A stretch of DNA of 53,697 bases from Mycoplasmataceae bacterium (GTDB taxonomy: Bacteria; Bacillota_I; Bacilli_A; Mycoplasmatales; Hepatoplasmataceae), in contig JAUXHI010000002.1 of assembly GCA_030621645.1 (NCBI GenBank), positions 1 to 53,697 on the forward strand. The letters are read 5' to 3'. Each line of letters starts with the position of its first letter. The first letter of the stretch is position 1. A program made the position numbers. Shown here one piece after another: positions 36,001 through 39,000 of this stretch.

Positions 36001-39000
36001 TCTTATTAATTTTTCTGTTTTGATTTCTTTGTTGTTATTCATTTACTCTCTTTCTTTGTTTAGTTAATTAAACTATAACAAATGGTAAAAGCGCAGTTTC
36101 TCTAGCTTGCTTAATTGCTTTTGCTAATTTTCTTTGATTTTTAGCAGTTAAACCTGTAATTCTTCTTGGAAGAATTTTTCCTGTATTTCTAGAAATAAAT
36201 TTTTTTAAAATTTCAACATCCTTGTAATCGATATATTCAATTCCTTGTAATACAAATAAATCTGGTCTATTTGTTGTTTTATATACTTTTTTTACTTTTT
36301 TTCTACCTTTGGCTGTTCTTGGCATAATTTTCTCCTTTTAGTTTCTTATTAAAATTGAATGTCATCAAAATTAATTTCTTCGTTGTTTGTTTTTTCTGAT
36401 GAAGTATCAAATTTTGAATCTTCATTTATTGCATTGTCAATTTTTTCTGCAGCTTTATTTAAAACTGGTGTTTCCTGAGTGTTTTGTTTTCTAAAATCTG
36501 ATTGGCTTTTTGTTTCAAGGAAGTGAACTTGTGAAACATTTACATTTGTTCTTATTTCATAATTTCCATCTTTTTGTGTTCTGTAAACCTCAAGTCTTCC
36601 TTCAACTCCAATTAATGATCCTTTTGATAAATATTTATTCATAAATTCAGCAGTATTTCTTCATGAAACACACGAAATAAAATCTGTTTGATCATTATTT
36701 CCTTGTCTATTTACTGCGATTGTGAAGAATGTGTAATTGGTACCATCGTTTGTTTGTCTTAACTCAATGTCAGTTGTAATTCTTCCTGTTAATATAACTC
36801 TATTTATCATATTGTTCAGCTTCTTTCTTAGTTTTTAATTTTCTTTCTTTAATCTCTTCGACAGTTTTTAATTCTGATATTTTTGAGAATTTTAAATCAT
36901 TATTTCTAGGTTGCCTAGGTTTTCTTTCTGGGAATTTTAATTCTTTTGAAGTTTTCATATCTGTTGGTCATTCCTTTTCGTGTCTTAAGATAAAAGGTCT
37001 TATTATTCTTTTTTCCACAGCAATTAACTCTTTAAGGTCGGCAATTGCTTCAGATGTTGTATCAACATAGTAGTGAATATAGAATGCTTTATTTTCTTTA
37101 TCGATTTTATAAGCCAATTCTTTAATTCCCCATTCTTCTTTAGACTTTATTGTTCCGCCTATTTTAGATTCTATGTTTGTGATTAATTCTTTTAATTCAT
37201 TTTCAACTAATTCTGGTTTTATTAATAATAATATTTCGTATTTTCTATCCATAATTTTCCTTTCTATAAATGCTCAATTCCTTTACCAATTAGGAAGTCT
37301 TCTATCTCTTCAGAATGTATCCCTGACTGAACTTCAAGTATGTGAGATTTGTTTAATGCGATCATTGCTATGTGATCTAAATTTATTGATATATTTATTG
37401 AACTTTTTCAATTGTCAGAAATAACTGACTTAATTATATCCATTTCACTTTGAACAACTAAATTTAGTTGTTCAGGTAATTCATTAATTCCTTTTCTTAT
37501 TGTTGCTTCAATAAGAATATCTTGAACAAAAGCTTTCTTCTCAAAGAATAAAACATATGTTTTTTCTTTTGCCTCAAATATCTGTTTATCATCTAGTTTT
37601 TTATAAACTATTGCTACCCCTTGTTGTCTAACAACATCATTGGCTTCATTTGATTCAAGCACATCCTCATAAGAATCTATTTCTACAGTCTTAAGTCTTA
37701 TTGGGATTGGTTTTGCCTTTATTGCTTCATTTGAAGTTAATATACCATTGATTGTAGAATGAACAATTCTATAAACGCTATCTGTAAGCTCTCTGGCCTT
37801 TTCAACAATATTTTCGGCATTATCATAAAGATATTCAATTGATAATATGTTTTTTTCAAAAGATCTTGTGTTTGAAATTTTGACATCTCTATCAATATAT
37901 TTTAATTCAGAAATGACTCCCCCATTTGTTTTTATATTTAATTTTATTAATGAATTCATCATTCATAATGCAAAGTCATTTAATATATAATAAACAGAAT
38001 TGTCTCCAACTGAATCAAATGTGATTGGTCTACCATCTTTCAATACTTTTGATTCTGTTGCCGGCCTTGTTCTTGAATACATTGCCTGCTTAATTTCAAC
38101 TATATTCAAATTATCAATTAATTTATCTTTTAATTCTCTTTTTATTTTTGAAATTAACTCATGTGTTTCTGAAATACTTAAATTTGATTTATATGTATTG
38201 GGGATTCTATTCATTGTCTTTCTTTCTTTGGTGTGGGAATAATAACACATCTCTAATTGATGCAGAGTCAGTTAATAACATAACTAATCTATCAACCCCA
38301 ATTCCCAACCCACCAGTTGGAGGCATTCCAAAATCCAATGCTTCAATATAGTCAATATCCATTTCATTGGCTCCGCTGTTTCCTTTTTCTTTTTCCTTTA
38401 ATTGATTTTCAAATCTATTGTGTTGATCATCAGAGTCATTTAACTCAGAGAATGCATTTACATATTCTCTTCTATCAATAAATAGTTCAAATCTATCAGT
38501 AAGATCAGTTCCTTTTCTTCTCTTGGCAAGAGAAGAAACTTCAACAGGATATCCAGTAATGAATGTAGGTTGAATTAATGTTTCTTCTACTTTTTCTTCA
38601 AAGAATTTATTAATTACATGCCCTATTGAATCTTCATATTTTTTAAGTTCAATATGATTTTCTTTAGCAAGTTTATTTGCTTCGTCAAAATCTTTTACTT
38701 GATTGAAATCAATTCCTGTAACTTCCTTAACAGCATCAATCATTTCAATTCTTTTAAAAGGTTTAGCTAAAGATATTTTTGTTCCTTGGTATTCAATGTC
38801 TGTTGTTCCATTTACTTTATTTGAAACATCTTCAATAATATCTTCAGTTATATCCATCATTGATTCCATATCACCATATGCCTCATATAGTTCTATTGAT
38901 GTGAATTCTGGATTATGTTTAACTGAAACACCTTCATTTCTGAAAAGTTTACCAATTTCAAACACTTTGTTCATACCGCCTACAATTAATCTTTTTAGAT

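What a model noticed while it worked through the whole genome (the two positions that open the first line are those of the whole stretch)
37264..38214. Catalytically dead AsnA locked behind lysS
g00207 has the AsnA (class II synthetase) fold but has lost the aspartate/ATP motifs (SLAKWKR, DQWDWE, RxPDYDD, ELSSMGIR, GGGIGQSR), and it overlaps the end of lysS. It is likely a non-catalytic partner or regulator of LysRS, a HisZ-like pseudo-synthetase. A conserved aaRS-derived pseudoenzyme coupled to LysRS across two Mollicute families is undescribed.
Evidence so far: Pfam AsnA over cut (tables) and PDB hit to asparagine synthetase E 4e-4. Divergent form in 12/14 family genomes and in about 32 of 60 genomes of a second (Spiroplasma-type, inferred) family. 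Of 42 such loci, 40 were readable and all 40 start within -40 to +79 bp of the lysS end; 8/8 intact AsnA loci of other Mycoplasmatales keep the motifs and have no lysS within 1.5 kb. Only Y8, F66, D67, R109, D110, E294 invariant. AsnRS and GatCAB are present, so Asn synthesis is not needed for tRNA charging.
(Added by a program. Inside this text positions count along the whole contig: contig position 1 is position 1 of the stretch shown here. "Call 12" and the like, gene names such as g00115 and contig names such as C1 are that model's own, and its searches are not shown. The text may have been shortened before it was handed on; [...] marks where a part breaks off. The agent that wrote the report below was given it as the finding of a first reader that could run no searches.)

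Follow-up and report, generated by a model that had tools for sequence, protein, structure and literature searches.

The report
Dead asparagine synthetase glued to lysS
Many mycoplasma-like bacteria keep, right behind the lysine-tRNA ligase gene, a conserved copy of asparagine synthetase A that has lost its active-site residues, so it is likely not an enzyme and likely serves as a dispensable helper of that ligase, although databases label some copies as a working asparagine synthetase.

Summary
Confirmed and wider than reported. Window 37264-38214 (-) encodes a 316-aa AsnA-fold protein (model TM 0.77 to E. coli AsnA) that keeps 2 of 17 positions invariant in 64 intact AsnA; it overlaps the lysS stop by 8 bp. 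Divergent copies form one clade. Of 103 divergent loci read, 86 lie directly behind lysS, in five families, while the genes on either side of the pair change; 0 of 80 intact asnA loci do. Seventeen genomes carry both a divergent copy behind lysS and an intact asnA elsewhere. dN/dS is 0.05-0.45 (84 pairs). So it is an old, selected, likely non-catalytic paralog, not a decaying gene. Against 'locked': 17 of 103 copies (three families) sit away from lysS, the gene was lost repeatedly, and LysRS shows no residue that tracks it. Binding to LysRS remains untested. Best reading: a dispensable, co-translated, HisZ/SLIMP-like partner of LysRS (0.4); an independent ligand- or RNA-binding role is nearly as likely (0.33). 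Spiroplasma copies keep a remodelled pocket. No description found in the searches run; NCBI names Spiroplasma copies as AsnA.

The parts
37264..38214 (-). asnX: AsnA-derived, likely non-catalytic class IIb synthetase-fold protein, 316 aa (code 4)
   Evidence: residue survey
38207..39700 (-). lysS, class II lysine-tRNA ligase, 497 aa; its last 8 bases overlap the asnX start
   Evidence: (TIGR00499 635 bits, cut-off 427.6)
38014..38031 (-). R62-P-I-T-F66-D67 hairpin motif (RxIxFD), family signature
   Evidence: R62 84 of 88, F66 86 of 88, D67 86 of 88 divergent sequences
37885..37893 (-). D108-R109-D110 in the motif-2 loop; D108 replaces the catalytic arginine (E. coli R100)
37327..37395 (-). 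degenerate motif 3 (N274-H281 for GGGIGQSR) and the kept H291-I-L-E294-V-Q296 segment
36800..37252 (-). next gene, ribosomal protein S6 (named by sequence inspection); starts 11 bases after the asnX stop; context only

Best explanation
The gene encodes an AsnA-fold protein that lacks the AsnA active-site residues, is under purifying selection and sits directly behind lysS, and it likely works as a non-catalytic, dispensable partner of lysine-tRNA ligase. Steps: (shown) one AsnA lineage lost its ATP, magnesium and aspartate ligands on a single branch and was then inherited across the order; (shown) its start overlaps or abuts the lysS stop; (inferred) the two are translated in coupled, near-equal amounts; (inferred) it keeps the class IIb dimer face, with the motif-2 loop clamped to the hairpin by an R62/D67/R109/D110 salt-bridge set; (untested) it binds LysRS, either through that dimer face as SLIMP does with SerRS or dimer-on-dimer as HisZ does with HisG, and tunes its stability or output; (speculative) the remodelled pocket of the Spiroplasma form senses a small ligand.
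For: Fold: TM 0.77 to 11AS, Z 25.8-25.9 to AsnA against 21.9 for the next family. Catalytic loss: 17 positions kept by 64 of 64 intact AsnA; window keeps 2; family medians 2.5-4, maximum 6. One clade, support 100 in FastTree (79 rows) and in a mixture-model quick tree (25 rows), with families as sub-groups. 86 of 103 divergent loci directly behind lysS; 0 of 80 intact loci. 75 of 82 measured junctions between -11 and +8 bases. The gene before lysS is of 12 kinds in 20 loci (names partly) and the gene after asnX varies too, so the kept junction is this one. 17 of 17 two-copy genomes read have the divergent copy behind lysS and an intact one elsewhere. dN/dS 0.05-0.45 in 84 pairs. Precedent: HisZ, SLIMP (passages of PMC9437257, PMC10817482).
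Against: 17 of 103 divergent copies are away from lysS: 12 of 12 in family f2 (most one to three genes before a TrmN-like methyltransferase and metG), 4 of 4 in f13, 1 of 1 in f6. Lost repeatedly: 49 of 58 extra lysS loci have another gene behind lysS and no divergent copy found elsewhere by the genome searches; at least 14 changes on the LysRS tree. Only 4 LysRS columns lean with the gene and none holds in 10 independent pairs (median p 0.5-1). The R/D/R/D set is already present in 7 of 64 intact AsnA, so it is more likely structural than a new binding surface. The conserved surface looks like the ordinary AsnA self-dimer face (roles recalled, no coordinates available). No dN/dS pair includes the window's own gene.
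Confidence: 0.4

Rival explanations
1. A non-catalytic homodimer with a role that does not need LysRS binding (amino-acid or nucleotide sensor, RNA or protein scaffold), kept behind lysS for steady co-expression with translation genes.
For: Keeps its signature after moving away from lysS in three families; in f2 it lands near another tRNA enzyme and metG; no LysRS covariation; Spiroplasma-family pocket is conserved in a changed form: D46 28/28, K77R 28/28, Q116E 28/28, D118G 28/28, S251Y 27/28.
Against: Does not explain why the junction to lysS alone survives while both flanks change. Pocket residues are not shared between families. No conserved basic charge as an RNA binder might show: median net charge -3 to +3 in the four larger groups.
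Confidence: 0.33
2. An active ATP-dependent ligase of a new substrate, at least in Spiroplasma.
For: Family f15 keeps D46, K75, R78, D217, G294 (27-28 of 28), R100 in 14 of 28 and R299 in 15 of 28. Class II folds are often re-used as ligases (PMC9437257 passages).
Against: In f15, E248 is kept in 2 of 28, D235 in 0 of 28, and G296 is replaced by F, Y or L; the two arginines are each absent in half the sequences. In the window's family R100, E248 (2 of 11), D235, G294, G296 and R299 are gone. Roles of these residues are recalled from class II synthetase chemistry.
Confidence: 0.12
3. A function-poor relic kept only because it sits in a housekeeping operon.
For: Cleanly deleted in many lineages (for example L212, L214-L216, L229 run from lysS straight to the next gene of their relatives); broken copies exist (L010, L037); long branches.
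Against: dN/dS below 0.45 in all 84 pairs and near that of lysS in close pairs; full length in 0.5-0.7 Mb genomes; kept beside an intact asnA in 17 genomes; conserved residues across eight families.
Confidence: 0.1
4. It is still an asparagine synthetase, as annotated for Spiroplasma and assumed for Hepatoplasmataceae.
For: AsnA fold and Pfam hit; NCBI names; PMC10928387 lists aspartate-ammonia ligase activity for the family; only AsnA match in the genome.
Against: 2 of 17 invariant positions kept; far under the NCBIfam cut-off (24.9 and 113.4 against 292.8); coexists with intact asnA.
Confidence: 0.03

Closest known systems
Asparagine synthetase A (AsnA, EC 6.3.1.1; E. coli 11AS, T. brucei 4LNS)
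   Same: Fold, length, ancestry; top structural and sequence match.
   Different: Lacks the substrate, ATP and magnesium ligands; fixed position behind lysS; coexists with intact asnA.
HisZ (HisRS paralog, regulatory subunit of HisG)
   Same: Stand-alone class II catalytic fold without adenylation, acting on another enzyme (PMC9437257 passage).
   Different: Derives from AsnA (class IIb), not HisRS; likely partner is a tRNA synthetase; lost freely; complex untested.
SLIMP (dead SerRS paralog, heterodimer with mitochondrial SerRS2)
   Same: Degenerate class II site next to an active class II synthetase (PMC10817482 passage).
   Different: SLIMP is a copy of its own partner, keeps the tRNA-binding arm and is needed for charging; asnX has no tRNA-binding domain, the LysRS is complete, and asnX is dispensable in many lineages.
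EpmA/PoxA (LysRS paralog that lysylates EF-P)
   Same: Stand-alone class IIb catalytic domain tied to lysine biology.
   Different: EpmA is active and LysRS-derived; no EpmA model matched asnX.

Membership tests
AsnA (aspartate-ammonia ligase) | Class IIb catalytic fold without anticodon domain, about 330 aa | tested here: met
   Model pLDDT 81; TM 0.77; Z 25.8, rmsd 2.8, 275 aligned
AsnA (aspartate-ammonia ligase) | Motif 2 and motif 3 arginines, GGGIG floor, magnesium ligands (E. coli R100, R299, G294, G296, D235, E248; roles recalled) | tested here: not met
   D108, H281, S276, N278, Y220, I233 in the window; each kept by 64 of 64 intact
AsnA (aspartate-ammonia ligase) | Aspartate pocket (D46, S72, K77, Q116, D118, E120, Y218, D219, S251, R255) | tested here: not met
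   Only E120 and R255 kept
AsnA (aspartate-ammonia ligase) | NCBIfam equivalog cut-off | tested here: not met
   24.9 bits against 292.8
AsnA (aspartate-ammonia ligase) | Asparagine synthesis | not testable with these tools
   needs assay or complementation
HisZ-like regulatory pseudo-synthetase | Class II fold with lost adenylation residues | tested here: met
HisZ-like regulatory pseudo-synthetase | Descent from HisRS | tested here: not met
   Closest to AsnA and class IIb
HisZ-like regulatory pseudo-synthetase | Conserved gene link to the regulated enzyme | tested here: met
   86 of 103 behind lysS, flanks variable; 17 exceptions
HisZ-like regulatory pseudo-synthetase | Complex with, and allosteric control of, the partner | not testable with these tools
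   needs biochemistry
SLIMP-like dead synthetase subunit | Partner synthetase has lost a domain that the dead subunit supplies | tested here: not met
   Window LysRS has both anticodon-binding and catalytic domains; asnX has the catalytic fold only
SLIMP-like dead synthetase subunit | Obligate co-occurrence with the partner | tested here: not met
   49 of 58 extra lysS loci without it; 14 changes on the LysRS tree

The most novel reading that the evidence does not exclude
A round trip: a tRNA-synthetase domain that became a metabolic enzyme (AsnA) died in the ancestor of Mycoplasmatales and returned to translation as a subunit of LysRS, making LysRS a heteromer whose output (lysylation or Ap4A) answers to a ligand held in the dead pocket, in most Spiroplasma, Hepatoplasma-family and Malacoplasma-type cells.
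Probability: 0.3. Interest if true: 0.85.

Novelty: new variant of a known kind. Interest (0 to 1): 0.62.

Why it matters
It adds an order-wide, apparently undescribed pseudo-synthetase to the short list of HisZ and SLIMP, the first derived from AsnA as far as the searches run show, kept in genomes of 0.5-0.7 Mb where few genes survive without use. If it binds LysRS it is a new layer of control on a bacterial tRNA synthetase. Even if not, it corrects metabolic maps: NCBI names the Spiroplasma copies asparagine synthetase AsnA and a Hepatoplasmataceae genome paper credits the family with aspartate-ammonia ligase, although these hosts are likely asparagine auxotrophs. Its absence from many lineages of the order may explain why it was missed.

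Tried and rejected
Complex prediction of full LysRS (84-row alignment) with asnX (76 rows): score 0.00 in two runs, no verdict. RNA runs for a Spiroplasma-family lysS-asnX stretch: none was listed. LysRS columns tracking asnX: 4 of about 500 passed a crude filter (0 in 100 shuffles) but none held in 10 independent pairs. Reading R109 as the catalytic motif-2 arginine: my own first reading, rejected after alignment to E. coli AsnA. Reading R62/D67/R109 as newly gained: weakened, 7 of 64 intact AsnA have the full set and the positions covary there (kin not independent). Conserved basic surface: not seen in net charge. Promoter or terminator signal at the junction: 23 promoter-like sites against 28.2 expected, no terminator on the coding strand. 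Weak matches in genus g39 fall inside lysS itself in the two checked and were not counted. The careful tree did not finish; the quick mixture tree is quoted. ESM Atlas gave only AsnA clusters. Earlier findings of the scan: nothing. Literature: nine answered searches besides the active-site one showed no description in titles, abstracts or the passages read; one biochemical AsnA paper was not held. Supplements were not opened; a supplementary gene table could mention the gene.

Full report
Observation. Under code 4 the window holds a 316-codon frame at 37264-38214 on the minus strand. Its ATG lies 8 bases inside the end of lysS (38207-39700), a full class II LysRS. The protein scores just over the Pfam AsnA cut-off (29.9 against 27), far under the NCBIfam one (24.9 against 292.8) and matches a solved asparagine synthetase at E 4.4e-4. 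A model from a 13-row alignment (pLDDT 81) matches E. coli AsnA best (TM 0.77; Z 25.8 over 275 residues, next family 21.9). It is the only AsnA match in this 85%-complete genome. AsnRS and GatB are present.

Taxon names. The protein of locus L007 is identical to one that NCBI lists for Ca. Hepatoplasma crinochetorum, that of L081 to one of Malacoplasma iowae, and that of L017 is 88% identical to a cluster of Spiroplasma proteins; the nearest named LysRS is from Ca. Tyloplasma litorale. I therefore read f1 (own family) as Hepatoplasmataceae, f15 as the Spiroplasma-containing family and f5 as the Malacoplasma-containing family. That is inference.

Active site. I aligned 88 divergent and 64 intact sequences to E. 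coli AsnA. Seventeen pocket and catalytic positions (chosen from recall of class II chemistry; the Asp-Gln pair is described in a passage of PMC3532385) are kept by all 64 intact sequences. The window keeps 2 (E120, R255); medians are 3 in f1, 2.5 in f5, 4 in f15, maximum 6. The motif-2 arginine R100 is D108 here; the conserved R109-D110 are positions 101-102. Motif 3 GGGIGQSR is NISINLDH. Family f15 keeps a changed but constant pocket (D46, K77R, Q116E, D118G in 28 of 28; S251Y in 27 of 28) yet lacks D235 (0 of 28), mostly E248 (2 of 28) and G296 (0 of 28), and holds R100 and R299 in about half. What all divergent forms share is Y8, T17, R62-x-I64-x-F66-D67, R109-D110, L287, K289, H291, E294. 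Most are shared with intact AsnA. R62, D67 and R109 are near-fixed only in the divergent set (84, 86, 87 of 88 against 12, 9, 18 of 64), but the full R/D/R/D set occurs in 7 of 64 intact enzymes and covaries there, so I read it as a structural clamp between hairpin and motif-2 loop (inference; no coordinates were available).

Range and gene order. An order-wide search found some AsnA-like match in 254 of 398 scored genomes, 3 more not scored. I read a chosen subset: mid-scoring matches and second copies, not all matches. Divergent and directly behind lysS: f1 13 of 13 loci (13 of 14 genomes; the missing one is 68% complete), f15 29 of 29 (30 of 52 matching genomes read; one was intact and not near lysS), f5 41 of 41, f9 2 of 2, f11 1 of 1. 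Divergent but elsewhere: f2 12 of 12, f13 4 of 4, f6 1 of 1; in two f13 genomes lysS is about 12 kb away on the same strand. Total 86 of 103. Two of the 86 are broken by stops (L010, L037). Of 82 measured junctions 75 lie between -11 and +8 bases, as for coupled translation. Of 80 distinct intact loci, 36 from outside the order, none is directly behind lysS; one has lysS 1.6 kb upstream. All 36 outgroup loci read, picked from 136 matching genomes of 300, were intact.

The link is specific. In 20 loci the gene before lysS is of 12 kinds (DusB, DJ-1 family and amidohydrolase named, the rest by inspection), and the gene after asnX is S6, YchF, IspD, Rpe, LeuRS, Glf, a UU173-family protein or others. 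Passive synteny would not spare this junction alone.

Age and selection. Divergent rows form one side of a branch with support 100 in FastTree (79 of 138 rows) and in a quick mixture-model tree (25 of 45 rows); branches are long, so attraction is not excluded, but the shared signature and position agree. Families come out as sub-groups. Intact copies within the order are scattered, so the dead gene may be the original asnA, with intact ones regained later. Seventeen f5 genomes were read at both copies: each has the divergent one behind lysS and an intact one elsewhere. dN/dS is 0.05-0.45 in the 84 pairs that passed identity and dS filters, close to lysS in near pairs; no pair includes the window's gene.

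Results against. The gene is dispensable: of 58 further lysS loci, 2 turned out to have a missed copy, 7 come from genomes with a copy elsewhere and 49 have another gene behind lysS, with at least 14 changes on the LysRS tree. No LysRS residue tracks the gene across 10 independent pairs. The window's LysRS is complete, unlike the SLIMP partner. Three families moved the gene; in f2 it mostly precedes a TrmN-like tRNA methyltransferase and metG.

Mechanism. That it is not an asparagine synthetase is about 0.95 likely, and that it is non-catalytic about 0.85. For its job I commit to a dispensable partner of LysRS (0.4): coupled translation, a kept class IIb dimer face and the precedents of HisZ and SLIMP. 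An independent sensor or scaffold is close behind (0.33); a new ligase in Spiroplasma 0.12; relic 0.1.

Literature seen. Passages only: PMC3854871, PMC2865477, PMC3532385, PMC9437257, PMC10817482, PMC10928387, PMC6594144. The review PMC9437257 lists AsnA only as an active enzyme and has no occurrence of Mycoplasma. PMC10928387 says Hepatoplasmataceae convert aspartate to asparagine by aspartate-ammonia ligase; as every family locus I read was the divergent form, it likely means this gene (inference; the passage gives no gene id). NCBI names Spiroplasma copies asparagine synthetase AsnA and others hypothetical. Search listings showed no description; the library lacks most subscription papers and supplements were not opened.

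Verdict. Real, old, selected and apparently undescribed; a new variant of the dead-synthetase kind. The LysRS partnership is a reasonable, testable guess. Interest 0.62.

Noticed in passing
L157-L168: In basal genera of family f2 the divergent gene lies, in most of 12 loci, one to three genes before a TrmN-like tRNA methyltransferase and metG; sometimes a desulfoferrodoxin lies between.
   Followed up: partly
L155:2164-5400: One intact asnA has lysS 1.6 kb upstream with two genes between (formyltransferase-like and uracil glycosylase-like by inspection); a possible trace of old gene order or chance.
   Followed up: partly
L037:1489-2490: Spiroplasma-family copy broken by four TAA stops in a 2.3 Mb genome; L010 also has an early stop.
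   Followed up: no
L263:1456-3087, L264:1453-3090: LysRS of family f12 is about 545 aa, with an insertion of some 40 residues in the insertion domain; no asnX found in the one genome searched.
   Followed up: partly
L067:2483-3991: lysS is split by an in-frame stop under code 4 in one f9 genome; may be an assembly error.
   Followed up: no
window 34077-34081: The DHH-family gene abuts the replicative helicase gene with no ribosomal protein L9 gene between them, where many Bacillota have one (names by inspection, order recalled).
   Followed up: no
L099, L105, L122, L138: Intact asnA lies within about 1 kb of a weak LysRS-like (likely AsnRS or AspRS) frame in 4 of 60 loci.
   Followed up: no
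P0041, P0050, P0067, P0084, P0092, P0105, P0125, P0144, P0151: Database proteins with fewer than two of five AsnA motifs but nearest to intact outgroup AsnA (33-49%); possibly independent or early-branching degenerate AsnA; no genomic context.
   Followed up: no
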